Counted from the first letter of the stretch, positions 10,251 through 26,798 are shown. The stretch is DNA of 64,000 nucleotides from Escherichia coli (GCA_902500055.1 GCA_902500055.1_4131.1), one strand, 5' to 3'. Notes: generated by a model from the sequence alone, not told the origin. Program-made: numbers and translations.

Positions 10251-10315
10251 GCCAGTATTTTGTACTGGCATTTTTTTGTCCTAAATATAATAACGATTTA
10301 CATTTGGAGGATACA
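10251..10315 (+). promoter_or_regulatory. Divergent copy of the intergenic cassette
   Basis: Hairpin gccagtattttgtactggc (10251-10269) flanked by an A-run and a T-run. TATAAT at 10286-10291, GGAGGA SD, ATG at 10316. Confidence 0.6.
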
Positions 10316-11468
10316 ATGCTACCCTTTGGAAGAATTATCACATCATCAAAAAAGAACATACAACCTTCTGTAACAAAAATAGCTTCATCTGATACAACAG
10401 TTTTTGCCCTTATGTCAGATGGTACGTTGTACAGTAGAGGCTCTCAAGAGTTTGGGCAAATGGGTATAGGTAATATTATAACACAAACCAAATGGGTTTT
10501 GTGCAATACAAACGTAGAAGATATATGGGTGCGGGTATGAGTCAACCTTAATAAAAAAGAAAGATAATACGATGTGGTACGCTGGAAATGGTGCATCATT
10601 CGGATTATCAACTGATAAGTCAACAACATGGGCTTCTGCAAAGATAGTGTTTGATAGAATAACCGCCCTAGGCAAAACAATAAAACAAATTGCAGTTAGT
10701 GCAGGTGCATTAAGCGTATTATGCACAGACAACACTATATGGAATACGGGCTATGGTAGTTATGGTCAACTGGGAAATGGTAGAAGTACCGATTCACTTT
10801 CATCATTTGTACAAGGAACAGTACCTACTGGAGTAACACCATCCAAAATACTGGCAAATTTTCTTATGCAAGGATTTATTGGAACCGATGGGAGATTGTA
10901 TTATACTGGTGCAATATCAGGCGTAGGTACAACCGACATGACGTTATATTCAAAGTACACGTTATGTTCTCAAATAACTAATACCTATACGGTGAAAGAT
11001 TATACAACAAACTCAAGTTACTTCGCTTTTGCTATAGCAAGTAATAATAGTAGTAATAAATTATTTGCATATCATGGTGGTGGACAATACTTTGGTCAGT
11101 TAGCAAATGGTTCTACATCACAAACATATATTTCGTTAAGACAAACAACACAAGCACCAGGTGATATAATAAGAAGCAGTGTGGGTTATTCATATTTTTC
11201 TAATCATATTATAACTTCATTAGGTGTTTACGCAACTGGTTATAACACAGGCGATAACGCAGGTCAATTAGGTATAGGTACACAAACAGATGTCTCAGCC
11301 TATACCAAATGTGTACTACCAATAGAGATGAATATGAATAACGTATATGTTACAGCAACTTTATACAGAACTTACTTAACCGATGGTATACAAATTTACA
11401 GTACTGGACAATATGTTACAGACGGTGGAGTTGCCAGTACTGTATTTGTCAAAGATTCACCATTTTAG
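10316..11468 (+). pseudogene. RCC1-like paralog 10, reading frame broken by a +1 shift between 10518 and 10540
   Basis: The MLPFGRIITS... frame stops at 10538-10540. The +1 frame is open from 10518 and reads GCGYESTLIKKKDNTMWYAGNG, which continues the paralog alignment to 11468. Confidence 0.6.
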
Positions 11469-12123: not shown

Positions 12124-12147
12124 ATCCAGTACTTAATAGTACTGGAT
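12124..12147. other. 10-bp perfect hairpin ATCCAGTACT-taat-AGTACTGGAT
   Basis: Inverted repeat read directly from the sequence. The T-run lies only on the + side, so its role as a minus-strand terminator is doubtful. Confidence 0.5.
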
Positions 12148-15462: not shown

Positions 15463-15494
15463 ATAATAGCAAAAGGGCCGACCTAAGTCAACCC
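15463..15494 (-). promoter_or_regulatory. Composite hairpin element (terminator-like stem with embedded -35 TTGACT) plus TATTAT -10
   Basis: The minus sense reads GGGTTGAC-TTAG-GTCGGCCC followed by TTTTGC. TTGACT (15486-15491), N17, TATTAT (15463-15468). Confidence 0.6.
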
Positions 15495-15504
15495 TTTTTT
15501 TATT

Positions 15505-15864
15505 CTATTCTAACTCACTCATTGTGGTGATAGTTAATCCCATTTCTTCTGCAATGTTGCATAGCAAACCAACTGCATTGCGAAGAATATCAGTGTTATC
15601 CACCGAGAATGATGAGTTTTCATTTACAGTTGAAGACTCAATGTAGTACTCAAAATAACGAGAAGTTGAACGGACAACTTTAACACCTTCATACTTCTGT
15701 AGTTCAGAGTTGATACGCTCGATGAGCGAATCTTCCAGTACTCGATAGTCACCATTCATTCCACGTTTCCATCCATCAGCAGGACGGAAGTAAAACGTCT
15801 TGGTGCGTTGAACAGTACTAATTACCAGTGGATTCAGTTCAGTGATTTCAGATAAAGATGCCAT
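15505..15864 (-). CDS. Hypothetical protein
   Basis: Intact ORF tiling the minus-strand block. I recognise no motif. Confidence 0.7.
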   Translation of the reverse strand: MASLSEITELNPLVISTVQRTKTFYFRPADGWKRGMNGDYRVLEDSLIERINSELQKYEGVKVVRSTSRYFEYYIESSTVNENSSFSVDNTDILRNAVGLLCNIAEEMGLTITTMSELE

Positions 15865-15894
15865 TTCCGATTCCTCATTAGTTGGTGTACATAC

Positions 15895-15923
15895 ATAATA
15901 CAGTTAAATGAGTACGGTGTCAA
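15895..15923 (-). promoter_or_regulatory. Sigma-70-type promoter TTGACA-N17-TATTAT
   Basis: The reverse complement reads TTGACAccgtactcatttaactgTATTAT. Confidence 0.65.
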
Positions 15924-15929
15924 TACCTT

Positions 15930-16199
15930 TTACTCAACAATTCCCAACTTAACAATCTCATACCCATCGAGTTGCCCGTGGGGACACTCAGGTGTTTCAT
16001 AAGATGAACCATCATGGATGTCCTGGCATTGACTTTTGGAATTCTCAAGCAATCGTTGCAGTACTGATACGTCATCAAGAACGTAATACAAGTTAGCATA
16101 TAAGTCCGTTACAATACAGTACTCCAACATGTCAAATGTATCAATCGAAATTTCAACCTTAGCAAATCGTTTCTTTTCTTTATTATACAGTGCGTACAT
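15930..16199 (-). CDS. Hypothetical protein (paralog of 18063..18317)
   Basis: The start was moved to MYALYNKEKK (GGAGA SD 5 nt upstream). It shares the M[FY]AL.NK...YEI..L pattern with 18063..18317. Confidence 0.7.
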   Translation of the reverse strand: MYALYNKEKKRFAKVEISIDTFDMLEYCIVTDLYANLYYVLDDVSVLQRLLENSKSQCQDIHDGSSYETPECPHGQLDGYEIVKLGIVE

Positions 16200-16200
16200 A

Positions 16201-16572
16201 TTAATCTCCATAATCAAGTTTAACCAACTTACCACACAGATACCCAAAGTTTTCTGGCTTCGCATCTGAATAGAAGAAGTCAGTACTTAACTCTGAATCC
16301 AATGCTAAAGCTCACAACTCCACCCAAAATAAACCCCTATGTTGTACTGGCTTACAACGTTTCTGTACAGTTACTAGTCCAGTACATGATGACCACAACG
16401 TAGGGCAGATACCACTATTACTACGCTTGGAGTACTGCATCCACGAACGTTCATTGAGGTTAGCTATCATCCCTGTTAAGAATAGCTTCCAACTTTTAAA
16501 GGTTGGAATCTTGATAGCATATTCCCCAATGAGTATGACAGTTCGTGTTGCACCTTTCAAATCTATATTCAT
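16201..16572 (-). pseudogene. Minimal protein-kinase-like gene interrupted by an in-frame TGA (16312-16314); pseudogene or readthrough
   Basis: The N-terminal part has TRTVILIGEYAIKIP (glycine loop and VAIK-like Lys). After the in-frame TGA the same frame reads ...FFYSDAKPENFGYLCGKLVKLDYGD (catalytic D-x-K-x-x-N and DFG-like DYG). Confidence 0.55.
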
Positions 16573-16583
16573 ATTTTTTTTAA

Positions 16584-16835
16584 TTAGAAGAACACAAACC
16601 AAGTCCAGAATAAATTCCACACTACAAATAAAGACATAGTGGTTTTATGTACAATATCAGCAGTACTGGTCCATCCTCCACCGTGTCCTATTCCATTTAT
16701 GAATAGAACTAAGAACAAGATACCATTTACTACAATAGTACATAGTAAGTACACAAACACATTCCATGCAAGTTCAGGGGATACTAACGTAAATGGTAAA
16801 ACAATTAGTAGTATTAGAACTAATAAAATTTTCAT
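16584..16835 (-). CDS. Small membrane protein
   Basis: 83 aa, almost entirely hydrophobic, with an N-terminal signal/TM segment. Confidence 0.65.
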   Translation of the reverse strand: MKILLVLILLIVLPFTLVSPELAWNVFVYLLCTIVVNGILFLVLFINGIGHGGGWTSTADIVHKTTMSLFVVWNLFWTWFVFF

Positions 16836-16863
16836 TTATCGCCTCACTTAATTAACGTGACAA

Positions 16864-17040
16864 TTAGTACGAATCAGATTCCCAGTACTCGATTGCTTCT
16901 TTCAGCAATTCTTTAGCACGTTGTTTTGCAATGCGAGCGGGAAACTGATATGTGTACATTAACTGACGCTTCACTTCATTCAGCGAAAGCTGTTCATGGT
17001 ACAGTGCATCCATCAGTCGATTACGAGTACGTAGTTTCAT
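16864..17040 (-). CDS. Hypothetical 58-aa protein (below the ORF-track cutoff)
   Basis: My own translation is MKLRTRNRLMDALYHEQLSLNEVKRQL...EYWESDSY. It fills an otherwise empty gap. The + ORF 16926..17129 is antisense to it. Confidence 0.55.
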   Translation of the reverse strand: MKLRTRNRLMDALYHEQLSLNEVKRQLMYTYQFPARIAKQRAKELLKEAIEYWESDSY

Positions 17041-17051
17041 ATAAGTTATCC

Positions 17052-17606
17052 TTATTTCAAAGAATCATAGTAAGCAGTGTCAAAGATTGGAGTCATAATA
17101 ACATAGTCAATACGGTCAATGTAAGTTGAACTCCACATTTCTGGTTTGTCATATAACTGACGCTCGCGTTCATTCATACGAGTCAGTACTTCTTCCAATT
17201 TACTACGTGAAGCCATCAATGTATTACGCGATCCATAAGTGAAGTACTCAGTCCATTGATATTCATATTCAGTACTGATAGATTGAATAGTACCATCTTT
17301 GAAATGAGCTAATGCATAACCTTTCTCTACAAAGTTATCAGGTGGAAGAACACCATCTGGATTAGTTTTCAATGCTTTTTCTAACTTTTCTTTAATTTCA
17401 GTTAACGTGCATACTGAACGAATGTTCTTCAGGTTTGATACTTGAAAATCACTGTACTTTCCAAAGAAAAATACACGCCAATCTTTAGGTTCATTATCAG
17501 ATACGGTAACATCAGGATGATGGGCGAGTAAACGAAGAAGGCCAGCTTTGTGACCGTTAATGTAGATTTCATGGATGTGGTTAGCAGTTTTCTTAAAAGT
17601 AATCAT
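17052..17606 (-). CDS. Hypothetical protein
   Basis: Intact 184-aa ORF with a GAGGAA SD upstream. Confidence 0.75.
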   Translation of the reverse strand: MITFKKTANHIHEIYINGHKAGLLRLLAHHPDVTVSDNEPKDWRVFFFGKYSDFQVSNLKNIRSVCTLTEIKEKLEKALKTNPDGVLPPDNFVEKGYALAHFKDGTIQSISTEYEYQWTEYFTYGSRNTLMASRSKLEEVLTRMNERERQLYDKPEMWSSTYIDRIDYVIMTPIFDTAYYDSLK

Positions 17607-17653
17607 GGTAGTTCCTCGATTGTAGGGATGAGAAGTTCATCCCCTTGATAAGC

Positions 17654-17681
17654 ATTATACAGTACTGAATGTGTTTGTCAA
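17654..17681 (-). promoter_or_regulatory. Consensus sigma-70 promoter TTGACA-N16-TATAAT
   Basis: The reverse complement reads TTGACAaacacattcagtactgTATAAT. Confidence 0.75.
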
Positions 17682-17682
17682 C

Positions 17683-18078
17683 TCAAAATAAATTCATTTC
17701 ATGTGCGTATTGTGGTTCAAGATAAGATAAGTTTTTGAAACTGTCTTTCAATTCCGCATCATCTACGTACACAGTACCAGGTACATTCCCCATAGTGAAG
17801 CCAACCCAAACAGTCATGTTTCCAGTTCCTAAGCGGGGCATTGATAGCGTCCCGTCAGGTGAAACATCAAACGCTACACTAAAGTCATCCGTTACAACTT
17901 CCGACCCATTTTCCAGAATAATACAACCACGTTCTTTAAGCTTCTGAATGTGGATAGCAGCCTCTACAGCACGTTTAAAGTTATAATAAGACTCTTTATC
18001 CTCGAACATTGATTGTTTAACCAGACGCTTGTTTAGCTCGGTTACTTTGTGCATTTGACGCATTACTTCAACTCCCAC
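17683..18078 (-). CDS. Hypothetical protein
   Basis: Intact 131-aa ORF in the tiling. Confidence 0.7.
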   Translation of the reverse strand: MGVEVMRQMHKVTELNKRLVKQSMFEDKESYYNFKRAVEAAIHIQKLKERGCIILENGSEVVTDDFSVAFDVSPDGTLSMPRLGTGNMTVWVGFTMGNVPGTVYVDDAELKDSFKNLSYLEPQYAHEMNLF

Positions 18079-18317
18079 AGTTGTAGAATTTCATAAGAGC
18101 CTGGTGGTGCTGGATTGATAATCTCAGGGTATTCAGTACTGTTAGGATTACCACCAGCATTGAACTCAGCAAGTAATAATTCGAGTTCATTCCTATCATG
18201 AACAACAAACACGCAATATCCAGTTCCTTCTTCAAGAACTGTAGTTGATCCCGCACAATCCCATACGGTATCAATACATAATAATTCTTTAGTGTTTTTA
18301 TTACGCAACGCAAACAT
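18063..18317 (-). CDS. Hypothetical protein (paralog of 15930..16199)
   Basis: Intact 84-aa ORF. The overlapping 137-aa ORF 18068..18481 has low-complexity composition and was rejected. Confidence 0.7.
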   Translation of the reverse strand: MFALRNKNTKELLCIDTVWDCAGSTTVLEEGTGYCVFVVHDRNELELLLAEFNAGGNPNSTEYPEIINPAPPGSYEILQLWELK

Positions 18318-18326
18318 ATATGTCTC

Positions 18327-18671
18327 CTATCGATTCGGCATATTCTTTCGTAGTCGCAAGAGAAATTCAACCACTGACCATGTTGTAATGAAGGCAATAT
18401 AAGTTGCAAGGAATCCAGTAAGAATAAATGCAACCAGCGTACTACCATTTGGGGAATCAGTTTTAATGCCGATGACACCATCGGCTACAGTGAAACATGT
18501 AGCCATTAATGTGTAACCTACGTACAACACAAAGAAAAACTCATTCTCCATTGAAGGATAGAAACGGTTAAACACTTTATAAAATTTAAAGTACAGTAGG
18601 ATTATACCAACAAAGGCATAGAATGTAAACAGTGTTGTTATAATATATGAGATTAGGTTCAAATTATACAT
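18327..18671 (-). CDS. Small 3-TM membrane protein (TM family, cluster 2)
   Basis: The start was moved to MYNLNLISY (GGAG SD). YFKFYKVFNRFYP motif and tail ...LRKNMPNR. Confidence 0.75.
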   Translation of the reverse strand: MYNLNLISYIITTLFTFYAFVGIILLYFKFYKVFNRFYPSMENEFFFVLYVGYTLMATCFTVADGVIGIKTDSPNGSTLVAFILTGFLATYIAFITTWSVVEFLLRLRKNMPNR

Positions 18672-18672
18672 A

Positions 18673-19020
18673 TCAACGCTCCGGTAGATTATCACGTAAT
18701 GTTTTAATTCGATGATACATTTTCATACCAATATTACCAAAGATACCATATCCAAGTACTAAAATGTATGCAATAAGCATAGTAATAATTACTATAGTGC
18801 CAAAACTATAATGTACACTACTGATACCCATTGTAGTTTCAACGATTATTTGAGAAACTGAAAGAATCAAAAGTACAACTACAATTGGATGATTTGGGTA
18901 CATTCGGTTGAACAACGTTTTGTACTTAAAGAAGCACAGTACTCCACCGAATAAGAAGTAAACAATGTAAATGCAAGCAACAGCATAGGCAAACATGTTA
19001 GTGTAATAAATCATTTCCAA
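18673..19020 (-). CDS. Small 3-TM membrane protein (TM family, cluster 2)
   Basis: FFKYKTLFNRMYP motif. Tail ...LRDNLPER. Confidence 0.75.
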   Translation of the reverse strand: MEMIYYTNMFAYAVACIYIVYFLFGGVLCFFKYKTLFNRMYPNHPIVVVLLILSVSQIIVETTMGISSVHYSFGTIVIITMLIAYILVLGYGIFGNIGMKMYHRIKTLRDNLPER

Positions 19021-19023
19021 TCC

Positions 19024-19362
19024 TTACTTTTCAGGGATATTAGAACGCCATATATCAATGCGATGAACTAGTCCAAAGAACAACCATACTGGAACGGCAG
19101 CTATCATAACAACAAATGAAAACCCAGTCAACACCGATACCAGATTTAATTCATCAGTACTATACCCACATATCAGTACTTCTAATATTCCCCACGTACA
19201 TGCACAAAACATCAAGAATGAAATTGGGGCATCATAGTAGATACGTTCATATAAAGTAGTATATCGGAAGAATGCAATAATATAGCAAAACATATAATAC
19301 ACCCAAACCAAAGATACTACATAAAATGATACTTTGTTTATTAATTCAAAATATTGTTCCAT
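19024..19362 (-). CDS. Small 3-TM membrane protein (TM family, cluster 2)
   Basis: FFRYTTLYERIYY motif. Tail ...WRSNIPEK. Confidence 0.75.
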   Translation of the reverse strand: MEQYFELINKVSFYVVSLVWVYYMFCYIIAFFRYTTLYERIYYDAPISFLMFCACTWGILEVLICGYSTDELNLVSVLTGFSFVVMIAAVPVWLFFGLVHRIDIWRSNIPEK

Positions 19363-19364
19363 TT

Positions 19365-19646
19365 TTACCCCAATATATATTCAGAGAGTAATGTATTAGC
19401 TTCATCTTTGTTCTTAAGGTAATACATGTAATATAGATTCGGTTCACCATCTTTAGAACTCAAATCGAAGTACTTTAAACTATGTACTTTCATAGTAAAA
19501 ACAAATAATGACTTAAAACCAATCTCACCGTACTTAATAAACAGTTCATCCAAATGAATGTAACTTTTTGATTTGGATAATTCTTTAACGTCTGCATCAA
19601 TTTCAGATAAAAGATGCTTACCTATTAAGTTTTCAAATGAACGCAT
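19365..19646 (-). CDS. Hypothetical protein
   Basis: Intact 93-aa ORF in the tiling. Confidence 0.7.
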   Translation of the reverse strand: MRSFENLIGKHLLSEIDADVKELSKSKSYIHLDELFIKYGEIGFKSLFVFTMKVHSLKYFDLSSKDGEPNLYYMYYLKNKDEANTLLSEYILG

Positions 19647-19682
19647 GATTTTATCCTTTACCGCAATTTTTATGGTTTATTA

Positions 19683-19711
19683 AGAATACACCAGAACATC
19701 AGTTCTGTCAA
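19683..19711 (-). promoter_or_regulatory. Possible sigma-70 promoter TTGACA-N17-TATTCT
   Basis: The reverse complement reads TTGACAgaactgatgttctggtgTATTCT. The -10 is weak. Confidence 0.4.
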
Positions 19712-20349
19712 TAAAAAACTGGATCTTCTTCAGTAACTGGTATTTCTCTACGTACATCACACGAAAGAGGATCAGTAATGAATACATTGCCATCTTTATC
19801 CATCATCACATTACTTGAATGAATGTCTGGTACAAAACGCCCGTGAAACTCTTTCATGATGTTAGCAGCGACCGTTGCAATAGCAATCTCTTCAGAATTT
19901 CCACGCATATCATTCACTGAAGTAGCGTACTGACCAGCATGTGCATAAGAATATAAATCTCCAATTTTAGTACTAACAAAGTCATCATAATTATTTTTTT
20001 GTTTAATTATAGGATAGTACTTGTCCATCTCATACCATCCAAAGTTTCCTTGTTCGTTGGCACTGTAGATCACTGGAAGAAACTTGGTTCCTGCGTTTTC
20101 AATGCAGTACTTTGCATAAGCACGAAAACCATCCCAGCGTGAAGTGGTTACTTTAAATGCACGTCCAGGATAGTTTTTATGTTCAACTACTACAGAGTAC
20201 ATCCCCATTCCAAGCAAAGTAAGTCCAGCAGCTTTAACTTGTGGAAAGATTACGCGTTCAGCATAAGGAATATCAAACTCCATCGCACAACGAGTTTTTG
20301 ATGGACGCAAAATGTCAATTAAAGTTTTGAATATGTCTTGCTTAGTCAT
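19708..20349 (-). CDS. Protein-kinase-like protein (atypical, short)
   Basis: GMGMYSVVV...GRAFKV (glycine loop and Lys) and FVPDIHSSNVMMDKDGNVFITDP (catalytic D-x-H-x-x-N and a DFG-like motif). The start was set at MTKQD after a GAGGA SD. Confidence 0.6.
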   Translation of the reverse strand: MTKQDIFKTLIDILRPSKTRCAMEFDIPYAERVIFPQVKAAGLTLLGMGMYSVVVEHKNYPGRAFKVTTSRWDGFRAYAKYCIENAGTKFLPVIYSANEQGNFGWYEMDKYYPIIKQKNNYDDFVSTKIGDLYSYAHAGQYATSVNDMRGNSEEIAIATVAANIMKEFHGRFVPDIHSSNVMMDKDGNVFITDPLSCDVRREIPVTEEDPVFY

Positions 20350-20378
20350 TACTTTATCCTCTGTAGTTAATACCAACA

Positions 20379-20409
20379 TCATAACAAAAAAGGCTGACCG
20401 AAGTCAACC
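20379..20409 (-). terminator. UUCG-tetraloop hairpin element GGTTGAC-TTCG-GTCAGCC plus U-run
   Basis: Hairpin at 20392-20409 followed (minus sense) by TTTTTTG. It carries an embedded TTGACT, but the -10 is only TTATGA. Confidence 0.65.
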
Positions 20410-20419
20410 TTTTGTTTTA

Positions 20420-21679
20420 TCATTTACCGTATTTGCTCATGATATCCTTTTCCCAAGGAGTTACATTTCCATTTTCGTAATCACGGAAAGAGTCATCAAG
20501 TGTAGTCAATGCATAATCATATGCCTCACCGGATTCAACATCAATGTCAACAGCACCATTCACTACATCAGTCCACGCTTTTTGTAGTTTACGAGCGTTG
20601 TTACCAACTTTATCTTTAATCCAACTAAGATTTCGGTTTATACTCTTCTTATCAGCACCAGCTTTTTCACCAACATCTGCAACCCATTGCATTAATTTCT
20701 GTAGTTCGTTATGGGATTTTTCAGTCATTTGGCGGTCTTGTGACAGTTCAGCTTCCATGTCATCAATTTCTTCGTCTGAATGAACATCATTCTGTTCTAC
20801 TGCACCTTCTTCATCATCACGCATCAGATAACCATCTCGTGTAACCTTCTCACCATGATCAGCTTCATACTTTTTCATAGTATTGAATGCAGCATCCATT
20901 GCAGTTACAAAACGACTCTTTTCACCTTGTACATAAGATTTAAGTGCATCGTTAACTGCATCAGATACTAATTTAATCTTATCGTCTTTACCTTCCAGAC
21001 GGTTTTCTAACTTAGCTAGTACATTCTTAACTTGTTGAGCATTAGCACGGTCTTCTTTACCAATACTATCAAATGTTTTAAGTACGCTTTCAAGACTTAC
21101 TTCCTCTTGTGCAGGCACATCACCTTGTTGCGTACCTTCAAGTGCACGCATTATAGTACTGAATACTTCAGTTGGTTCAGTACTGGTATTTCCACTCATT
21201 GCATCAAGTACAGCTTGTGCTTTGACTTTTAATTCTTCTTTAGGTACAGATTGCAATTCTTTCACAATACCTTGGATAAGTTGTGGTTTATTAGCAAAAA
21301 TCTTACCTAACTTATCAGACAGTTCTTTGACAGGGTTAACCGCCTTTGGTGCTTCTTGTTTTGGTTCTTCTTTCGCAGGAGCAGACTTTTCTTTTTCTTC
21401 ACGTTCCATATCAGCTAGACGTTGTTTTTGTGTAGCATTAAGAAGTCCCAATGAATTAACATAACGTAGCTTTTCTAGCTCAGTCATGTTCTCAGTACTC
21501 TTAACTTCACCTGCTTCTGCGTTTGCCTTACCAGCAAGTCCCGTTCCTTGGTTTCTGGAACCACGTGAACCTTGTCCTGCTTGATAACTATTTTTGCGAC
21601 GATTTCGGTCGGCCCATTTATCCGAGTGTTGTACTAGTCCACCATTACGATGTTTCATATCCCCATTATCTTGTGGCAT
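20420..21679 (-). CDS. Highly charged, Lys/Glu-rich hypothetical protein
   Basis: 419 aa with a basic Gly/Arg N-terminus. It shares the Y(V/L)(N/D)SLGLL...Q segment with 23024..23407. Confidence 0.75.
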   Translation of the reverse strand: MPQDNGDMKHRNGGLVQHSDKWADRNRRKNSYQAGQGSRGSRNQGTGLAGKANAEAGEVKSTENMTELEKLRYVNSLGLLNATQKQRLADMEREEKEKSAPAKEEPKQEAPKAVNPVKELSDKLGKIFANKPQLIQGIVKELQSVPKEELKVKAQAVLDAMSGNTSTEPTEVFSTIMRALEGTQQGDVPAQEEVSLESVLKTFDSIGKEDRANAQQVKNVLAKLENRLEGKDDKIKLVSDAVNDALKSYVQGEKSRFVTAMDAAFNTMKKYEADHGEKVTRDGYLMRDDEEGAVEQNDVHSDEEIDDMEAELSQDRQMTEKSHNELQKLMQWVADVGEKAGADKKSINRNLSWIKDKVGNNARKLQKAWTDVVNGAVDIDVESGEAYDYALTTLDDSFRDYENGNVTPWEKDIMSKYGK

Positions 21680-21683
21680 ATTT

Positions 21684-22226
21684 TTAATCCTCTATCCATG
21701 TTTGATTGTATAAAATACGACGTATTGTTTTTTTACATACACGGTATTTATTACAATTTTCTCGTGCATATTCTATCACATCATTATAATTATCATTATA
21801 ATCTTTTCTTATTTCTCTTACAATTTCCCATGTCAACACAGCAGCACCACGATTAGTTGTTGCGTTACCATGTGAATAAGAATATAGTACGTTTTCAGAT
21901 GCTGTGTTCCATTCCAAATTCAAATAGTGATTGTTACTTCTATTACAATCTTTATGGTTTATGTGAACAACTTTTTTCTTTGTTCTACTCGCCCACTGTA
22001 ACTGTTTCTGTGTGGGTGGTGGTAAAAATGCTTCAGCTACTAGTCGATGAATCGCCTTTCTATTTTTCACAGAATTGCGATACAAATCGACCTTCACATA
22101 CCCATCTTTATTTTTAAATCCACAACTTATATATCCAGTTTGTTCGTTTCTTACTCTTCCATGATCAGAAATTGAATAGTCATAATCAGGAATTAATTTC
22201 CAACGTTCCATGTTTATTTCTTCCAT
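21684..22226 (-). CDS. HNH homing endonuclease (NUMOD4-type N-terminus plus HNH_3-like core)
   Basis: ERWKLIPDYDYSISDHGRVRN, IHRLVAEAF and HINHKDCNRSNNHYLNLEWNTASEN. Confidence 0.85.
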   Translation of the reverse strand: MEEINMERWKLIPDYDYSISDHGRVRNEQTGYISCGFKNKDGYVKVDLYRNSVKNRKAIHRLVAEAFLPPPTQKQLQWASRTKKKVVHINHKDCNRSNNHYLNLEWNTASENVLYSYSHGNATTNRGAAVLTWEIVREIRKDYNDNYNDVIEYARENCNKYRVCKKTIRRILYNQTWIED

Positions 22227-22254
22227 TATATATAAAGGTTGACCGAAGTCAACC
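22225..22254 (-). promoter_or_regulatory. Composite hairpin element GGTTGAC-TTCG-GTCAACC with embedded TTGACT-N16-TATAAT
   Basis: Perfect 7-bp stem at 22237-22254. TATAAT at 22225-22230 (minus sense). Confidence 0.6.
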
Positions 22255-22276
22255 CTATTTTCACTGTACTATACCA

Positions 22277-22573
22277 TTAGTAGTTACAGTCAGCTTTCGC
22301 TGTGAATGTTTTACTTTCTCCGCGTTGTGTGGTGATTCGTCCGAGTAAAGTAGTTTTGTCAATAGTCATTGTAGTTAGTACTGGAACATTACCTTCAAAG
22401 TCAATAGCTTTGAAATTGTAGGTGGTTTCATTCTCCACTACACTTGGACCAAAGAGTTCATATGTGTTGATTTCAAGTGTGTCACCATCTGAACGCAACA
22501 GTGTGCAGTCCAGATTAGGAGTAGCCAGTACAGGGAAAGCCAAACACATTATCATTGCTATAATTAATTTCAT
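22277..22573 (-). CDS. Small secreted protein (signal peptide)
   Basis: N-terminus MKLIIAMIMCLAFPVLATP. Related in pattern to 26448..26798 and 27191..27550. Confidence 0.7.
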   Translation of the reverse strand: MKLIIAMIMCLAFPVLATPNLDCTLLRSDGDTLEINTYELFGPSVVENETTYNFKAIDFEGNVPVLTTMTIDKTTLLGRITTQRGESKTFTAKADCNY

Positions 22574-22833
22574 TTCACTTCTCCTGATTTTTTCTTAGGA
22601 TCAACCAATGACCAAATGAAGAATCCGAGAATTACAAGTACCCACAGAATCATGATAAAGAAAGCAAACAGTACAATAGTATTTGTCAAAAAGAAATACA
22701 ATAGAATGTTCGACCCAATACTACATACAATCAATGCAGCTTCATGTTTAACAACACGAATGGCTGTAATGAGTGCGGGAAGAAATCCGACAAATAACAG
22801 TACTAACGCATATAGTGATAATGTTTCAGCCAT
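22570..22833 (-). CDS. Small membrane protein
   Basis: 87 aa with three hydrophobic segments. ATGA overlap with the downstream gene. Confidence 0.7.
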   Translation of the reverse strand: MAETLSLYALVLLFVGFLPALITAIRVVKHEAALIVCSIGSNILLYFFLTNTIVLFAFFIMILWVLVILGFFIWSLVDPKKKSGEVK

Positions 22834-22841
22834 GATATCCC

Positions 22842-22955
22842 TTATTTGGTTTGTTCAACACTAGGTGTATTGATATAGGTGTCAATTGAATAACATACTG
22901 TACCCACTACAACAGCAGCGATTAGGGCAGCAACTACAAATTTCAAACCTTGCAT
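22842..22955 (-). CDS. 37-aa single-TM peptide (below the track cutoff)
   Basis: My own translation is MQGLKFVVAALIAAVVVGTVCYSIDTYINTPSVEQTK. A GAGGT SD lies 7 nt upstream. Confidence 0.5.
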   Translation of the reverse strand: MQGLKFVVAALIAAVVVGTVCYSIDTYINTPSVEQTK

Positions 22956-22984
22956 ATATGATACCTCAGTTATATTGAGAAGTT

Positions 22985-23016
22985 ATGATACAACAAAGGG
23001 CTGACCTTAGTCAACC
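22985..23016 (-). promoter_or_regulatory. Composite hairpin element GGTTGAC-TAAG-GTCAGCC with TTGACT-N18-TATCAT
   Basis: Hairpin at 22999-23016. The -10-like TATCAT is at 22985-22990. Confidence 0.5.
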
Positions 23017-23023
23017 ATTTTTA

Positions 23024-23407
23024 TTACTTCTTGAACTTATGTTTTTCACTTTCGATTGCATTCACGATTTCATCATGAATTTTACGAAGATTGTGAGTTT
23101 TCTTTAGAGAATCATGCAATGCACGGAATGCAGAGTGTACAGTTGCTTTAAAGTGCTCTTTAGGAGTTACTTTAAGTTTCTCGATAATATCACGTACATA
23201 GATTGGGTGATCCTCAAACACACGATTAAGCTCATGGCCTAGTGATTCTAGGCTAAATGCTTTTTCACGGGATGGACGATCATGTGCAAGACTTTGGTCT
23301 GGTTTTAGAAGACCTAGTGAATCTAGATACTTGTGCTTATGTGCATTGTCTAGACCAGAAATATCAACATCATGTGATGGATCTTTCTTATTCCATTTAC
23401 CAACCAT
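23024..23407 (-). CDS. Hypothetical protein (short paralog of 20420..21679)
   Basis: The segment KYLDSLGLLKPDQ...IIEKLKVTPKEHFKA parallels RYVNSLGLLNATQ...IVKELQSVPKEELKV. Confidence 0.7.
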   Translation of the reverse strand: MVGKWNKKDPSHDVDISGLDNAHKHKYLDSLGLLKPDQSLAHDRPSREKAFSLESLGHELNRVFEDHPIYVRDIIEKLKVTPKEHFKATVHSAFRALHDSLKKTHNLRKIHDEIVNAIESEKHKFKK

Positions 23408-23522
23408 TTTTATAACTCCTATAAGAGATAAATTTTACTATAATATTTATAGTTCCGTTGTCATTTATATCGAATGACATAAAACATTATATCATAATAA
23501 GAATGGTTGTCCCAAAGTTAAA

Positions 23523-23966
23523 TTAGTACTGATCAAGTTCAGATGTAAAAATGAATGCATCCATGTCTTCCAACGTAAGTTTTAAGTCTGGTACATACTT
23601 AAGAATAACGCACTCTGGCTTCTTAATAGCAGCTTGATAAGCAGCAATGGCAAGGGATTCCAACTGCTGTGCTGTATAATTTTTCCGTTCTGCATTAAAA
23701 ACTTTGTTTTTGATATCACCACCTGGGAGTTTTTCAAACTCACGCATAACTGCGGCAAGAACATCGTCGGCAGTGTTACTATATACCCATTGGGGTAATT
23801 GCATTACATTATAAATCACACCACTATCATCCATCAAAGAGATCCATTTATATCCATCACTCGCACTGAACAAACGCCCTTTTAGTACTGTATTATTGGT
23901 TAAATTTACAAATGCAAAAATATCTTGTTCGTTAAGTTCAATACTATTAACATTTACCCAACTCAT
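23523..23966 (-). CDS. Hypothetical protein
   Basis: The start was moved to MSWVNVNS to clear the upstream stop at 23980. Confidence 0.7.
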   Translation of the reverse strand: MSWVNVNSIELNEQDIFAFVNLTNNTVLKGRLFSASDGYKWISLMDDSGVIYNVMQLPQWVYSNTADDVLAAVMREFEKLPGGDIKNKVFNAERKNYTAQQLESLAIAAYQAAIKKPECVILKYVPDLKLTLEDMDAFIFTSELDQY

Positions 23967-23979
23967 TACGATTCCCCAT

Positions 23980-24552
23980 TCATAAATCACGAACAATATT
24001 CATTAAACACAATTTAGGCTTTATAGAATTCAAAACCCATATGCACTCTTTGTAAGTAGCTATTATATCATCTAAATGCTCAGTCACAATACTTTCTTGA
24101 AAATATTCTTCATCATTGAGCTTTGCTAATTTAGTAACATCACATGTAGGCACTATAGGTCTGGATTGTACACCCATTCCATTATTGATATTAGTGAAAT
24201 GTACAAAATGGTACTTCACAACACCTTTATCTAGATTTATTATACATGACAAATTTTCCAACTCAGTTAGTTTTTTATTACAAGTAACATTAATGAAACC
24301 AGCATTATAGGCTCTATAATCATCTACTGATATCTCAAAATCATTACGTTCAAATATAAGTGAAATGAGTTGGTCCAGTGGTTTGACATTCATATATTTT
24401 AATGAATTTACGTATGATACTTCAATCTTAGATGAAATTATCTTTTTACTAAGTGCAGTTAAATCTTTGTTAGATTTAACTGTTAAAACAATAGGTTTAA
24501 ACCTAGAACTTTTGTTCTTTTTTGATACTTTAAAACGACCTTTACGATTCAT
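23980..24552 (-). CDS. Hypothetical protein, F-Q-x-S motif family member
   Basis: The start was moved to MNRKGRFKV (GAGGA SD). C-terminal motif DEEYFQESIV. Confidence 0.7.
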   Translation of the reverse strand: MNRKGRFKVSKKNKSSRFKPIVLTVKSNKDLTALSKKIISSKIEVSYVNSLKYMNVKPLDQLISLIFERNDFEISVDDYRAYNAGFINVTCNKKLTELENLSCIINLDKGVVKYHFVHFTNINNGMGVQSRPIVPTCDVTKLAKLNDEEYFQESIVTEHLDDIIATYKECIWVLNSIKPKLCLMNIVRDL

Positions 24553-24559
24553 AATTTCC

Positions 24560-24781
24560 TCAATTAATAATTTCACATTTAACGTGTGGTTTATATAGCA
24601 TAATTAACCCATTTTTAAGTACAATGATTGTTGCTCTGTTAGTAATCGAAACGTTTTTAATTATACTTTTTTTATATGTTTCAACATATTTCTCTTCATA
24701 ATTTATACATTTAACATATTCTTTTTGTTTAGCACTTACAACAGTACTGAATAATATCAGTACAAGTACTATATATTTCAT
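24560..24781 (-). CDS. Small secreted protein
   Basis: Signal peptide MKYIVLVLILFSTVVSAKQ. Confidence 0.65.
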   Translation of the reverse strand: MKYIVLVLILFSTVVSAKQKEYVKCINYEEKYVETYKKSIIKNVSITNRATIIVLKNGLIMLYKPHVKCEIIN

Positions 24782-24833
24782 TACTATACCTTATAAACAA
24801 AAAGGAATTCATTTAAGAATTCCTATTTTACAA

Positions 24834-25127
24834 TCATTTATCTAACATACCATTGTGTAAACGTTCATATACTTCAGTTCGACGCAAATTCACAATATCT
24901 TCTGCGTATTTTAATGTAAATGCCCATGCTTTTGGATGTACGTTAAGCTTCATACGAATTCGATTTTTCATCAACTCTCCACTTAAACGAATAAATTCGT
25001 GTACACCACGACTACCGTATTCAGTAATTAAATCATTAATGTACATATCACGAAGAGTTTCATCTGCACATTCTTTAACCATTTCTACGTCAGCGACGAT
25101 GCTTTCATTAACTGAAGTACTGATCAT
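24834..25127 (-). CDS. Hypothetical protein
   Basis: Intact ORF. The antisense + ORF 24853..25146 was rejected. Confidence 0.65.
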   Translation of the reverse strand: MISTSVNESIVADVEMVKECADETLRDMYINDLITEYGSRGVHEFIRLSGELMKNRIRMKLNVHPKAWAFTLKYAEDIVNLRRTEVYERLHNGMLDK

Positions 25128-25138
25128 TTTAATTTACC

Positions 25139-25405
25139 TTATTTAAATTCGACTGTAATTTTATCACCTTCAACTACGAACTTACAGTTGTAGCGACGTG
25201 CCATATCCATGTACATATGCTCAGAGTACCAAGGAACATCAATAATCGGATGCTCTGCATATTGTAGAACTTCACGGTCGCCCACTGTAGTAATGATGAA
25301 AGGAATGTTCATCTCTCGTAAAAACAGTTCAGCACCAGGAGAACGATTAATAAATTCAGTATCATTACGTAAAGTAAATCCATTATATTGTAATTTAAGC
25401 TTCAT
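25139..25405 (-). CDS. Hypothetical protein
   Basis: Intact 88-aa ORF in the tiling. Confidence 0.65.
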   Translation of the reverse strand: MKLKLQYNGFTLRNDTEFINRSPGAELFLREMNIPFIITTVGDREVLQYAEHPIIDVPWYSEHMYMDMARRYNCKFVVEGDKITVEFK

Positions 25406-25419
25406 ATGTTATCCTCTAT

Positions 25420-25764
25420 TCAATACCATTCTTTAAAACCATTAAGTTCGGCTACGTGAGTGATTATAACACATATAACATTCAGGTCAAGTATAATTTG
25501 ATCATAATTTAATTTTATACGATCATCATTATATGCTCTAAAAACTACATCGTAATCAAAGAAATTTGCGTTTTCATCATTCATTGAAACGATTCGGTAT
25601 CTACGTCTTCCATCTGTATTGAATATAGTTAAACACTGTTGAAACTTTCTCATTAACTGTTTAGATAGGATATTATAATATTCAATATCTTTTTGTGAAT
25701 TACGTGGGTCATCAGGAAGATAGAATGAAACAAATTTCTTTAATTCTATTTGAGTTTTATCCAT
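25420..25764 (-). CDS. Hypothetical protein
   Basis: Intact 114-aa ORF in the tiling. Confidence 0.65.
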   Translation of the reverse strand: MDKTQIELKKFVSFYLPDDPRNSQKDIEYYNILSKQLMRKFQQCLTIFNTDGRRRYRIVSMNDENANFFDYDVVFRAYNDDRIKLNYDQIILDLNVICVIITHVAELNGFKEWY

Positions 25765-26197
25765 ATATTACCTCATGTGTTTCTCTTTTACTTTGTCGGA
25801 ACTCATCCTTTGCTTCCTTAACTGACATGATACGAACTAATTTAGCACTACCGCAATAGTACTGAACCTGATTACGACCAATGTCTACATGGTGGTCTGG
25901 AACTTCATATACAGATATAGCAAACCCAGCACGATGCAATTTACCTAAGTCCATAGTGAAGAATCTGAACAAATCTTTCAAACTTTGACAGCCAAATACC
26001 CATCCACTTTTGATTGAATAGATCCCATCCTCAGTTGGTTCAGGTTGGAATTGAGAAGGTGTAGTCATGAGCAAACGGTCAAATCCATTTTTAGTACTGT
26101 ATCTGGTTGAATACCGTGCAAACGGACCTACAGTTCGTGCAGGATCTAAGTTAGGTTCAATGTAACTAAATTTAAGTTCAAAACGATATACATACAT
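25757..26197 (-). CDS. Hypothetical protein
   Basis: Intact 146-aa ORF in the tiling. Confidence 0.7.
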   Translation of the reverse strand: MYVYRFELKFSYIEPNLDPARTVGPFARYSTRYSTKNGFDRLLMTTPSQFQPEPTEDGIYSIKSGWVFGCQSLKDLFRFFTMDLGKLHRAGFAISVYEVPDHHVDIGRNQVQYYCGSAKLVRIMSVKEAKDEFRQSKRETHEVIYG

Positions 26198-26225
26198 AAT
26201 TAAAATCCTCTAATTTATTAAGAGA

Positions 26226-26257
26226 ATTATAACAAAAAAGGCTGACCGAAGTCAACC
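26226..26257 (-). promoter_or_regulatory. Composite hairpin element GGTTGAC-TTCG-GTCAGCC with TTGACT-N18-TATAAT
   Basis: Hairpin at 26240-26257 plus TTTTTTG. TATAAT at 26226-26231 (minus sense). Confidence 0.6.
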
Positions 26258-26443
26258 TTTGTTTTGAAGTTCTTGAACTAATTGTCGTACTTCGTTAATA
26301 TTATTACACTGCTTTACAGTGAAGTAATCATACTTACGACCATAGGTTCTTGGGTCATCACCTTCCATATACTGCTGCACATCAAAGATTTGTAAGTAGG
26401 GATGCTGCATAACACGAATATTTTCACTTTGATAAATCAACAT
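26252..26443 (-). CDS. Hypothetical 63-aa protein
   Basis: The start was moved to MLIYQSEN, clearing the upstream stop at 26448. AAGGA SD. Confidence 0.6.
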   Translation of the reverse strand: MLIYQSENIRVMQHPYLQIFDVQQYMEGDDPRTYGRKYDYFTVKQCNNINEVRQLVQELQNKG

Positions 26444-26447
26444 AATA

Positions 26448-26798
26448 TCAATCCTTATATTTACACAAGCCACCAAAACTAGTTTCTTTAGCACCACGAC
26501 GCATCATAACTAATTTAGCATATTGTGTACCATTACTATCTTCATATACATCTACTTCAATAAACGCTAAGAAGTTAGGGTCTGTGTCGTTAGAAAACTC
26601 AGTGAAGCTAATGTCGCCTACTGTATGCTCTTTAACAAACGTATATGATTGTCCATCAATATATACAATATCTCGATCGTCACTATCACCTTGATAGATA
26701 TGTTTAATATTACCATCTGTACAAACTAAACCTTCCAATGGTTCAGCATATGACAATCCACACATTAACATACATACAAAAAATAAAATAATTTTCAT
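26448..26798 (-). CDS. Small secreted protein (paralog set with 27191..27550)
   Basis: Signal peptide MKIILFFVCMLMCGLSYAEP. Core pattern C..G......G......V.IDG..Y.F. Confidence 0.7.
   Translation of the reverse strand: MKIILFFVCMLMCGLSYAEPLEGLVCTDGNIKHIYQGDSDDRDIVYIDGQSYTFVKEHTVGDISFTEFSNDTDPNFLAFIEVDVYEDSNGTQYAKLVMMRRGAKETSFGGLCKYKD

What the first reader, a model, noticed from the sequence alone, without database searches (positions are those of the whole stretch)
15463..26257. Five copies of a UUCG-tetraloop hairpin that also carries a -35 hexamer, forming a terminator-promoter composite element
The element GGYTGAC-YKMR-GTCARCC occurs at 15475-15494, 20392-20409, 22237-22254, 22999-23016 and 26240-26257. 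On the minus (transcribed) sense it is GGTTGAC-UUCG-GUCAGCC, a stable cUUCGg-type loop in three copies and UUAG/UAAG in two. It is followed by a U-run, so it is an intrinsic terminator. The 5' arm spells TTGACT. In four of the five copies a good -10 follows at 16-18 nt (TATTAT, TATAAT, TATCAT, TATAAT). Termination of the upstream unit and initiation of the next are thus packed into about 32 nt. Hairpin formation could in principle occlude or present the -35. I know of no described equivalent.
Basis: partly seen in the sequence, partly recalled or inferred. Interest (0 to 1): 0.5.

Follow-up and report, generated by a model that had tools for sequence, protein, structure and literature searches.

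The report
Phage terminator hairpin doubling as promoter

Summary
Five copies of GGTTGAC-N4-GTC(A/G)(A/G)CC lie on the coding (minus) strand, where chance predicts none. Each sits between a stop codon and the next ribosome-binding site. All five, not four, have a -10 hexamer 16-18 nt after TTGACT.

The window comes from an Asteriusvirus, a 121Q/PBECO4/phAPEC6-like jumbo coliphage. Evidence for an RNA hairpin:
- G-U wobbles pair only in the sense transcript.
- Loops are mostly UUCG.
- The A-tract and U-tract flank the stem.
- One flanking pair covaries.

Evidence for a promoter:
- The 5' arm never varies, while the 3' arm toggles A/G.
- 27 of 28 copies from Rak2-like phages carry a -10 at the right spacing, often with TGn. 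Only 2 of 18 bacterial chromosomal copies of the same hairpin do.

Related phages differ by gene cassettes bounded by these elements. Copy 20392 is an exact fusion of two copies that flank three genes in relatives.

This matches the PeSL ("promoter-early stem-loop") cassettes described in T4-like phages in 2010 and 2014, including a subclass whose stem-loop overlaps the -35. I found no description of it for Rak2-like jumbo phages. The same hairpin-plus--10 also occurs in KVP40-like, Vequintavirinae and Brochothrix A9 phages. No transcript-end data exist. Verdict: new member of a known kind.

The parts
15463..15498 (-). Cassette copy 1. A-tract plus hairpin at 15498-15471 (core GGGTTGAC-UUAG-GUCGGCCC, 15494-15475). 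-35 TTGACT at 15491-15486, 17-nt spacer, TGc, -10 TATTAT at 15468-15463. It lies between the stop codon of ORF 15505-15864 and the ATG at 15434.
   Evidence: -19.2 kcal/mol, z -5.4
20378..20413 (-). Cassette copy 2. Hairpin at 20413-20388 (GGUUGAC-UUCG-GUCAGCC plus A:U extension). -35 at 20407-20402, 18-nt spacer, TGt, -10 TATGAT at 20383-20378. It sits upstream of the T7 gp0.7-like protein kinase gene (19708-20382). It is an exact fusion of the two copies that flank genes 202-204 in G17, 121Q and phAPEC6.
22225..22256 (-). Cassette copy 3. Hairpin at 22256-22235 (GGUUGAC-UUCG-GUCAACC, the only perfectly palindromic copy in the window). -35 at 22252-22247, 16-nt spacer, -10 TATAAT at 22230-22225. 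It is directly upstream of an HNH/NUMOD4 homing-endonuclease ORF (21684-22226), inside a stretch (about 21629-22912) absent from G17, 121Q and phAPEC6; its two small ORFs (264 and 297 bp) have same-length counterparts annotated in BF17, not compared by sequence.
22985..23016 (-). Cassette copy 4. Hairpin at 23016-22999 (GGUUGAC-UAAG-GUCAGCC). -35 at 23014-23009, 18-nt spacer, -10 TATCAT at 22990-22985. The U-tract is interrupted. It sits upstream of a small ORF whose start codon is visible in the read sequence about 44 nt downstream of the element; I infer it to be the homologue of the 38-aa gene 200 of 121Q from the matching element position and the G17 annotation, not from a listed ORF.
26226..26260 (-). 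Cassette copy 5. Hairpin at 26260-26237 (GGUUGAC-UUCG-GUCAGCC). -35 at 26255-26250, 18-nt spacer, TGt, -10 TATAAT at 26231-26226. The TGA stop codon of upstream ORF 26252-26497 lies inside GGTTGAC.
15895..15935 (-). Degraded or hybrid site. AAAAGGtaTTGACAcc followed by TATTAT: a plain sigma-70-type promoter without a hairpin (-35 at 15923-15918, -10 at 15900-15895). It marks the point where the window lacks the gene-218 + denV cassette and the element that precedes it in G17 and 121Q. The junction falls at the shared TTGAC.

Best explanation
Each copy is a PeSL-type regulatory cassette of about 35 nt, with up to about 55 nt conserved in relatives. It has three proposed roles.

(1) Terminator. 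Transcribed in gene sense, it gives an A-tract, a 7-8 bp G/C-clamped stem closed by a cUUCGg-type tetraloop, and a U-tract. This is an intrinsic terminator, or at least an attenuator, for the upstream early transcription unit.

(2) Promoter. The same DNA is a sigma-70-type promoter for the next gene. The A-tract acts as an UP-like element. TTGAC of the 5' arm plus the first loop base forms the -35. The 3' arm and the T-tract fill the sequence-neutral 16-18 bp spacer. Then come (TGn)TATNAT, a short 5'UTR, SD and ATG. Each gene block is therefore transcriptionally insulated and restarted.

(3) Crossover site. Because the cassette is repeated, it supplies short homology for recombination, and this deletes, inserts and swaps gene cassettes between related phages.

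What is shown here: the anatomy, the strand-specific pairing, the dual constraint on the 5' arm, the conserved -10, and the recombinant junctions. What is inferred: actual termination, actual initiation, which sigma factor is used (host sigma-70 or the phage's own RpoD-like factor), and the recombination mechanism.
For: Five copies against none expected by chance. All are intergenic, on the coding strand, 7-22 nt after a stop codon (or overlapping it), with an ATG about 28-45 nt after the -10.

Sense RNA folds at -12 to -19 kcal/mol; the antisense folds tested (4 copies) are 5-7 kcal/mol weaker. The orthologous hairpins in G17 carry ARNold terminator annotations in the deposited record, and the GAP32 record annotates its copy at 17290-17313 the same way.

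In 33 copies (32 distinct) from 7 phages, the core stem pairs in 100% of cells. The first pair outside the -35 covaries: GC 18, AU 8, GU 5. GGTTGAC is invariant, and the 3' arm varies only A<->G opposite the two U's. A search allowing transitions on both arms still found no 5'-arm variant in K64-1 (14 copies), GAP32 (2) or five Asteriusvirus loci. A stabilising U->C change in the 5' arm is therefore never seen, which is what an extra -35 constraint predicts.

A -10 with A2, T6 and at least 4 of 6 matches at a 16-18 nt spacer is present in 27 of 28 Rak2-like copies, against 2 of 18 bacterial chromosomal copies of the identical 23-mer. Judged by eye, most of 11 copies from other IMG/VR phage contigs also carry a TATNAT-type hexamer there, often with TGn; the -10 criterion was not applied to that alignment.

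Recombination: copy 20392 has the upstream flank of G17 copy 9877 and the downstream flank of G17 copy 8792. The slot at 15476 is empty in the window and holds three different cassettes in G17, 121Q and phAPEC6, each flanked by two copies; CRJP21 also has a filled slot flanked by two copies. Across six genomes, 42 of 187 homology-breakpoint clusters fall on the cassette, against 5.9 expected, and 35 of 45 elements carry a breakpoint.

PeSLs with a stem-loop overlapping the -35 have been shown experimentally to be promoters and terminators in RB49/phi1 (PMC2839356).
Against: There are no transcript 3'- or 5'-end data for any Rak2-like phage that I could find.

Copies are paralogous and partly homogenised: a roughly 55-nt identical cassette recurs in G17, TH47 and BF17. 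Conservation therefore overstates the number of independent observations.

The spacer is 18 nt in three of the five copies, which is suboptimal for sigma-70. Two copies have weak, interrupted U-tracts. Some orthologous copies lack a usable -10 (G17 9877: TGTAAA/TAAATA), so not every copy is composite.

Against the stricter null that breakpoints fall only in intergenic spacers, the enrichment in G17 is only marginal (5 of 7 element spacers hit, 8 of 19 spacers hit overall; P about 0.07).

The cassette around copy 22237 carries an HNH homing endonuclease. That variant stretch may owe more to homing than to element-mediated recombination.
Confidence: 0.75

Rival explanations
1. Terminator only. 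The hairpin family happens to contain TTGAC, and the -10-like hexamers are a by-product of a T-run followed by AT-rich phage DNA. Downstream genes would be expressed by read-through or from other promoters.
For: The same 23-mer hairpin occurs as an apparent plain terminator in chromosomes of Acinetobacter, Exiguobacterium, Vibrio, Bdellovibrio and Bacteroidetes, mostly with no -10. Database records annotate the phage copies only as terminators. Promoter-like matches in the region as a whole are no more frequent than in shuffles: 94 found against 89.5 expected.
Against: A -10 is present in 27 of 28 Rak2-like copies against 2 of 18 bacterial copies. Positions T1, A2 and T6 are kept while positions 3-5 vary, and TGn is frequent. 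The 5' arm is invariant while the 3' arm varies, even under a symmetric search. The TTGAC-type hairpin is used only where a gene follows within about 45 nt. The terminators at 12124-12147 and 34689-34720 use other stems.
Confidence: 0.12
2. Promoter with a palindromic operator. The inverted repeat overlapping the -35 would be the DNA binding site of a dimeric phage regulator that shuts off, or activates, early promoters. It would not be an RNA structure.
For: An inverted repeat centred on a -35 is a classical operator layout. Rak2-like phages encode their own transcription factors and an RpoD-like sigma factor.
Against: The DNA palindrome is imperfect in 28 of 32 distinct copies, and always in the direction that keeps G-U pairing in the sense RNA. 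The 4-nt centre is enriched for the extra-stable RNA tetraloops UUCG (20 of 33) and GAAA (3 of 33). The A-tract/U-tract flanks and the position right after stop codons fit a terminator. This reading is not mutually exclusive with the main explanation.
Confidence: 0.05
3. RNA 3'-end stabiliser or processing site. The hairpin would mainly protect upstream mRNA from 3' exonucleases, or mark an RNase cut in a long polycistronic early transcript, without terminating RNA polymerase.
For: Two copies have poor U-tracts (22237 and 22999). PMC2839356 itself speaks of 'terminator/attenuator'.
Against: Three copies have canonical U-tracts of 5-7 U and an upstream A-tract. ARNold scores them as terminators. 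A stabiliser role would add to termination rather than replace it.
Confidence: 0.08

Closest known systems
PeSL (promoter-early stem-loop) cassettes of T4-like phages: RB49/phi1, T4/PST, KVP40/nt-1 (Arbiol et al. 2010, PMC2839356; Comeau et al. 2014, PMC4122927)
   Same: Both are composite sigma-70-type promoters plus terminator stem-loops. Both have an AT-rich tract upstream, the stop codon of the upstream gene at the 5' edge, and SD/ATG at the 3' edge. Both contain G-T pairs in the stem. Both are repeated in regions of small ORFans. Both sit at indel and replacement boundaries between close relatives, with crossovers inside the element. One described subclass has the stem-loop overlapping the -35.
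   Different: The host genomes here are Rak2-like jumbo phages (Asteriusvirus and relatives), not Straboviridae. The stem differs: here it is a fixed GGTTGAC-UUCG-GUCAGCC, against Gn-loop-Cn in RB49 and A3-4G3-loop-C3T3-4 reported for nt-1. In RB49/phi1 the commonest placement is between the -35 and -10 or over the -10. Mini-circles and reporter activity have not been tested for this family.
Canonical intrinsic (Rho-independent) terminator
   Same: A G/C-clamped stem, a stable tetraloop, a 3' U-tract and a 5' A-tract, placed just after a stop codon.
   Different: The 5' arm is frozen by a second function, and the U-tract runs straight into a -10 hexamer.
Extended -10 (TGn) sigma-70 promoters and T4 early promoters with an upstream A-rich element
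   Same: TTGACT / 16-18 nt / (TGn)TATNAT, with an A-tract at about -38 to -45.
   Different: The spacer is mostly 17-18 nt and is filled by the terminator's 3' arm and T-tract. Which sigma factor is used (host or phage RpoD-like) is unknown.
Promoter-terminator coupling and post-termination RNA polymerase recycling in bacteria (PMC6978322; PMC11364550; bioRxiv 10.64898/2026.08.19.745784, of which only the title and the start of the abstract were visible)
   Same: A terminator and the next promoter lie within a few tens of bases, which is where polymerase retained on DNA after termination could reinitiate.
   Different: Nothing here tests coupling. This is only a lead.

Membership tests
PeSL cassette | Sigma-70-like promoter (-35, spacer of about 17, -10) inside the repeated motif | tested here: met
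   TTGACT, 16-18 nt, TATNAT in 5 of 5 window copies and 27 of 28 Rak2-like copies; TGn in 3 of 5
PeSL cassette | Stable stem-loop within or adjacent to the promoter that can act as a terminator or attenuator | tested here: met
   Sense-strand folds of -12 to -19 kcal/mol, z -3.6 to -5.4. 100% pairing of the core stem in 32 distinct copies. ARNold annotation in G17 and GAP32. Function was not assayed.
PeSL cassette | AT-rich tract upstream, upstream stop codon at the 5' edge, SD and start codon at the 3' edge | tested here: met
PeSL cassette | Concentrated in hyperplastic regions of small ORFans | tested here: met
   All 5 window copies lie within 10.8 kb of the 64-kb window. Eight of G17's 9 places lie in one stretch of about 14 kb made of small hypothetical genes.
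PeSL cassette | Indels and replacements between close relatives bounded by the elements, with crossovers inside them | tested here: met
   Exact fusion at copy 20392. The slot at 15476 has several different fillings (empty in the window; different cassettes in G17, 121Q and phAPEC6; also filled in CRJP21). 42 of 187 breakpoint clusters fall on cassettes against 5.9 expected. The enrichment is only marginal (P about 0.07) against a spacer-only null.
PeSL cassette | Experimentally shown promoter and terminator activity; excised mini-circles | not testable with these tools
   Needs reporter assays and inverse PCR on infected cells or virion DNA.
PeSL cassette | Carried by a T4-like (Straboviridae) genome, as originally described | tested here: not met
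   The window matches Asteriusvirus at 95-98% identity. The same hairpin plus -10 does occur in Schizotequatrovirus phages. Taxonomy is a circumstance of the original description, not a mechanistic criterion.
Intrinsic terminator | GC-rich stem, 3-8 nt loop, U-tract within 0-2 nt of the stem, downstream of a stop codon | tested here: met
   Four of the five copies are flagged on the coding strand by the consensus scan. The fifth, 22237, is flagged on the other strand and has 5 T of 8 in sense.
Dimeric-protein operator (DNA palindrome) | Symmetric half-sites conserved in DNA; centre not constrained by RNA stability | tested here: not met
   Half-sites are asymmetric in 28 of 32 distinct copies, in the direction that preserves the RNA wobble pair. 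The centre is enriched for UUCG and GAAA.
Rfam RNA family | Match at gathering score | tested here: not met
   No Rfam hit in 15-27 kb. The only hits in the window are tRNAs and a group I intron elsewhere.

The most novel reading that the evidence does not exclude
The GGTTGAC-UUCG-GUCAGCC / T-tract / TGnTATNAT module may be a recurrent 'standard part' of large virulent phages. It appears in Rak2-like jumbo phages, KVP40-like T4-type phages, Vequintavirinae, and the SPO1-like Brochothrix phage A9 of a Gram-positive host.

Its exact geometry might be selected for more than compaction. RNA polymerase releases its transcript in a U-tract that lies inside the next promoter's spacer, about 13 nt from the next start site. 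That could allow termination-coupled re-initiation, a polymerase hand-off. The shared 30-55 nt could also allow gene cassettes to move between otherwise unrelated phage genomes.
Probability: 0.15. Interest if true: 0.65.

Novelty: new member of a known kind. Interest (0 to 1): 0.35.

Why it matters
The finding explains how the early 'ORFan' region of these 350-kb phages is wired. Short, self-contained transcription units each stop the previous unit and start the next. It also explains why gene content there differs between near-identical isolates: cassettes are lost, gained and swapped at these repeats.

For annotation, hairpins now labelled only 'terminator' in Asteriusvirus, GAP32, Munch and similar records should also be read as early promoters.

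For engineering, the module is a natural, compact insulator-plus-promoter of about 35 nt.

The asymmetry between an invariant 5' arm and a wobbling 3' arm is a clean sequence signature of two functions sharing one strand. It could be used to find such composites elsewhere.

Tried and rejected
- Cruciform or occlusion of the -35 by a DNA hairpin: rejected. The stem is 7-8 bp with a 4-nt loop, and the complementary strand carries a C-A mismatch in most copies.
- Palindromic operator: considered unlikely, for the reasons given under the rival explanations.
- Mobile element of MITE type: nothing supports it. The repeat is 18-55 nt with no terminal repeats, and the 18-mer is not dispersed outside the early region.
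- Rfam: no family matches.
- Covariation test on the stem: almost uninformative, because the -35 freezes the 5' arm. Only the first pair outside the core covaries.
- Chance recurrence of the 23-mer: 18 bacterial hits is far above my own uniform-base-frequency estimate of the expectation (about 0.07), but I judge it not surprising for terminator-like sequence space. I used those hits only as a control for the -10.
- Breakpoint enrichment against a spacer-only null: only marginal (P about 0.07).
- The T5-like phage hits are 17-nt matches to the T-run/-10 part only, and I disregarded them.
- The 2026 bioRxiv preprint on promoter-terminator coupling could not be opened.
- Loci fetched in parallel did not reach the Python sandbox, so CRJP21 and UB were used only through the alignment and pattern tools.
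- The 161-kb IMG/VR contig carrying the element has no relative in the phage collection.

Full report
**Observation**

The pattern GGYTGACNNNNGTCARCC has four exact matches in the window, at 20392, 22237, 22999 and 26240. None of 100 dinucleotide-preserving shuffles gave any match.

From about 11.4 kb onward the genes are on the minus strand. Read in that sense, every copy is (A)n-GGTTGAC-loop-GTC(A/G)(A/G)CC-(T)n. Each lies 7-22 nt after a stop codon and ahead of an SD/ATG. In copy 26240 the TGA stop of the upstream ORF lies inside GGTTGAC itself.

The loops are UUCG in three copies, UUAG in one and UAAG in one. All five copies, not four, have a -10-like hexamer 16-18 nt after TTGACT: TATTAT, TATGAT, TATAAT, TATCAT and TATAAT. 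Three are preceded by TGn.

**What the window is**

The region is 95-98% identical to Asteriusvirus jumbo coliphages such as phAPEC6, 121Q, PBECO4 and G17. It lies in a block of small, mostly hypothetical genes. The block includes a T7 gp0.7-like protein kinase, and in relatives also denV. It lies downstream of a phage RpoD-like sigma-factor gene in the direction of transcription. The G17 record already annotates the orthologous hairpins as ARNold terminators of -13.5 to -17 kcal/mol. The GAP32 record annotates its copy at 17290-17313 the same way.

**Evidence for an RNA hairpin on the sense strand**

- The sense transcript folds at -12.1 to -19.2 kcal/mol, with z-scores of -3.6 to -5.4. For the four copies also folded antisense, the fold is 5-7 kcal/mol weaker.
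- I aligned 33 copies (32 distinct) from the window, G17, Klebsiella phage K64-1, Cronobacter phage GAP32, two KVP40-like vibriophages and Pectobacterium phage POP17.
- In that alignment the seven core pairs form in 100% of cells.
- Two pairs toggle between U-A and U-G through changes in the 3' arm only.
- The first pair outside the core covaries: G-C 18, A-U 8, G-U 5.
- In 28 of 32 distinct copies the DNA is not a perfect palindrome. The imperfection is always a G opposite U in the sense RNA, which becomes a C-A mismatch on the other strand.
- The loops are dominated by UUCG (20 of 33), and GAAA is also present (3 of 33).

These features point to a structure selected in the sense RNA. They do not fit a symmetric protein-binding site or a DNA cruciform.

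**Evidence for a promoter**

*The 5' arm is frozen.* GGTTGAC never varies. I searched with a pattern that allows transitions on both arms. It found 14 copies in K64-1, 2 in GAP32 and 6-8 in each of five Asteriusvirus loci. All of them carry GGTTGAC, and all variation lies in the 3' arm. A U-to-C change in the 5' arm would turn the U-G wobble into a stronger C-G pair, yet it is never seen. Something other than pairing constrains that arm, and a TTGAC -35 box is the obvious candidate.

*The -10 is conserved and correctly placed.* Its positions T1, A2 and T6 are essentially fixed, while positions 3-5 vary (A/T/G/C at position 4). The sequence beyond it diverges.

*Bacterial copies serve as a control.* I scanned 185,579 bacterial and archaeal genomes for the same 23-mer hairpin plus T-run. 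It occurs 18 times, in Acinetobacter, Exiguobacterium, Vibrio, Bdellovibrio and Bacteroidetes. Only 2 of these 18 have a hexamer with A2, T6 and at least 4 of 6 matches at a 16-18 nt spacer. The figure is 27 of 28 for copies from Rak2-like phages and 29 of 33 for all phage copies in the alignment. A T-run followed by AT-rich DNA does not, by itself, produce the -10.

*Use of this hairpin type is context-dependent.* In the window it appears only where a gene follows within about 45 nt. The terminator between the convergent gene blocks (12124-12147) and the one at 34689-34720 use other stems.

**How the two functions fit together**

The parts specific to the terminator are the 3' arm and the U-tract. 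They occupy the promoter spacer, which sigma-70 does not read. The A-tract extends the stem by pairing with the U-tract, and it also sits where UP-like A-rich elements lie.

The predicted RNA 3' end (in the U-tract) and the next predicted start (about 7 nt below the -10) are only about 13 nt apart. For copy 26240 they are at roughly 26232 and 26219. These positions are inferences; no transcript-end data exist.

**A third role: crossover points**

*Slot at 20392.* Copy 20392 has the upstream flank of G17 copy 9877 and the downstream flank of G17 copy 8792. It is therefore an exact fusion of the two copies, 1,085 bp apart, that flank genes 202-204 in G17, 121Q and phAPEC6; CRJP21 and UB have copies at the same 1,085-bp spacing.

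*Slot at 15476.* It is empty in the window. It holds different cassettes in G17 (00092-00093), 121Q (220-222, including a CapR-domain protein) and phAPEC6 (gp019c-020c), and is also filled in CRJP21 (gp_557-558). Each filling is flanked by two copies.

*Missing denV cassette.* The window lacks the gene-218 + denV cassette together with its element. The junction (15918-15929) lies at the TTGAC shared between the element and an ordinary TTGACA promoter.

*Statistics.* Across six Asteriusvirus genomes, 42 of 187 homology-breakpoint clusters fall on a cassette, against 5.9 expected if breakpoints were placed uniformly. 35 of 45 elements carry a breakpoint. Against the stricter null that breakpoints fall only in intergenic spacers, the enrichment in G17 is marginal (P about 0.07). 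The junction anatomy, not the statistic, carries this claim.

*Homogenisation.* Many copies in G17, TH47 and BF17 share an extended cassette of about 55 nt: AAAAGGGTTGACTTCGGTCAGCCCTTTTTGCTATAATtATTTCATCAAC. This suggests homogenisation among copies.

*One exception.* The stretch around copy 22237 (about 21629-22912) is absent from G17, 121Q and phAPEC6 and carries an HNH/NUMOD4 homing endonuclease directly behind the element. BF17 annotates two ORFs of the same lengths as the window's two small ORFs in this stretch; I did not compare their sequences. That variation may be due to homing.

**Comparison with what is known**

This is the anatomy and behaviour of PeSLs ("promoter-early stem-loops"), described in the T4-like phages RB49/phi1. 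PeSLs are composite sigma-70 promoters plus terminator stem-loops with G-T pairs in the stem. They have AT-rich upstream tracts. Five subclasses are distinguished by stem-loop position, including overlap with the -35. Reporter assays showed promoter and terminator activity, and crossovers were mapped inside the element (PMC2839356). PeSLs were later found in T4/PST and KVP40/nt-1 (PMC4122927).

I found no paper describing such composites in Asteriusvirus or other Rak2-like phages. Papers on CBB, PA5oct, Sharanji and fEgEco12 list promoters and terminators separately, or not at all.

**Breadth**

A 36-nt query finds 5-13 places per genome in all Rak2-like jumbo phages: Asteriusvirus, K64-1/RaK2, GAP32, CBB, Munch, fHe-Yen9-04 and fENko-Kae01. 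The identical hairpin followed by a -10 also occurs in other lineages:
- Schizotequatrovirus vibriophages. In two of these copies the downstream box reads TATAAATA, the T4 late-promoter consensus.
- Vequintavirinae.
- Brochothrix phage A9, a phage of a Gram-positive host whose closest matches in the phage collection are Staphylococcus, Listeria, Enterococcus and Bacillus phages.

The -35 fixes TTGAC, pairing fixes GTCAR, and stability favours UUCG and a GG/CC clamp. Independent convergence on the same 18-mer is therefore plausible. Horizontal spread is not excluded.

**Verdict**

The terminator-promoter reading is well supported in silico but untested by experiment. The idea that the hairpin occludes or presents the -35 has no support. 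The element is a new member of a known kind (PeSL-type regulatory cassettes), found in a phage group where it had not been pointed out, with clear signs of cassette shuffling at the repeats.

The most novel reading still open is functional coupling of termination to re-initiation, given evidence that RNA polymerase can stay on DNA after termination (PMC6978322, PMC11364550). Nothing here tests it.

Noticed in passing
window 835-10330 (+ strand); hairpins at 847-866, 3228-3253, 4470-4492, 5734-5752, 6543-6565, 7733-7751, 8974-8992 and 10243-10277: A second, longer terminator-plus-promoter-like cassette family of about 75 nt. It consists of hairpin GCCAGTAC-N3/4-GTACTGGC, a T-run, then the conserved TAAATATAGTATAATGAATAAAGGAGG and ATGTTACCTTTTG. 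It is repeated before each gene of a + strand array whose phAPEC6 homologues are annotated as RCC1-repeat proteins. It has no TTGAC -35, so it may be a middle- or late-type analogue, comparable to the PmSLs of phage nt-1.
   Followed up: partly
window 21684-22226 (-): A 180-aa ORF with HNH_3 and NUMOD4 domains, a free-standing homing endonuclease. It lies immediately downstream of cassette copy 22237, inside a stretch (about 21629-22912) absent from G17, 121Q and phAPEC6.
   Followed up: partly
window 50167-50481 (-), with ORF 49398-50102 (-): A group I intron (Rfam RF00028, 99 bits) sits inside the tRNA cluster, between tRNA-Ser (50581-50670) and tRNA-Asn (49316-49389). It is followed by a 234-aa ORF with an HNH-like motif. 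The host exon was not identified.
   Followed up: partly
window 26252-26254: The TGA stop codon of ORF 26252-26497 lies inside the GGTTGAC 5' arm. Stop codon, -35 box and terminator stem therefore overlap in one heptamer. The G17 record likewise shows the CDS overlapping the annotated terminator.
   Followed up: yes
window 12124-12147 and 34689-34720: Two near-perfect palindromic hairpins flanked by an A-run and a T-run: ATCCAGTAC-TTAATA-GTACTGGAT at the junction of the convergent + and - gene blocks, and AAAAAAGGTTGGC-TTAT-GCCAACCTTTTTT. They look like bidirectional terminators and do not embed a consensus -35.
   Followed up: no
L009 12001-12040 (Vibrio phage D485); L010 15032-15096 (Vibrio phage 1.081.O): In KVP40-like vibriophages the identical hairpin AAAAGGGTTGACTTCGGTCAGCCCTTTTT is followed by TATAAATA, the T4 late-promoter consensus, at the -10 position. 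This suggests a possible dual early/late promoter behind the same terminator.
   Followed up: no
L001 9842-9906 (G17 copy 9877) and orthologues in 121Q, phAPEC6, TH47 and BF17: One orthologous copy keeps the hairpin and TTGACT but has no usable -10 (TTTTTTTGTAAATAC). The hairpin/-35 half and the -10 half can evidently be uncoupled, probably by crossover inside the element.
   Followed up: partly
L015, L016, L017, L019 and others (bacterial chromosomes): The same 23-mer, RGGTTGACTTCGGTCAGCCYTTT, occurs 18 times across one representative genome per bacterial species (Acinetobacter, Exiguobacterium, Vibrio, Bdellovibrio, Bacteroidetes MAGs), apparently as ordinary terminators. Only the Bdellovibrio copy and one Clostridia MAG copy have a -10 at the right spacing.
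   Followed up: partly
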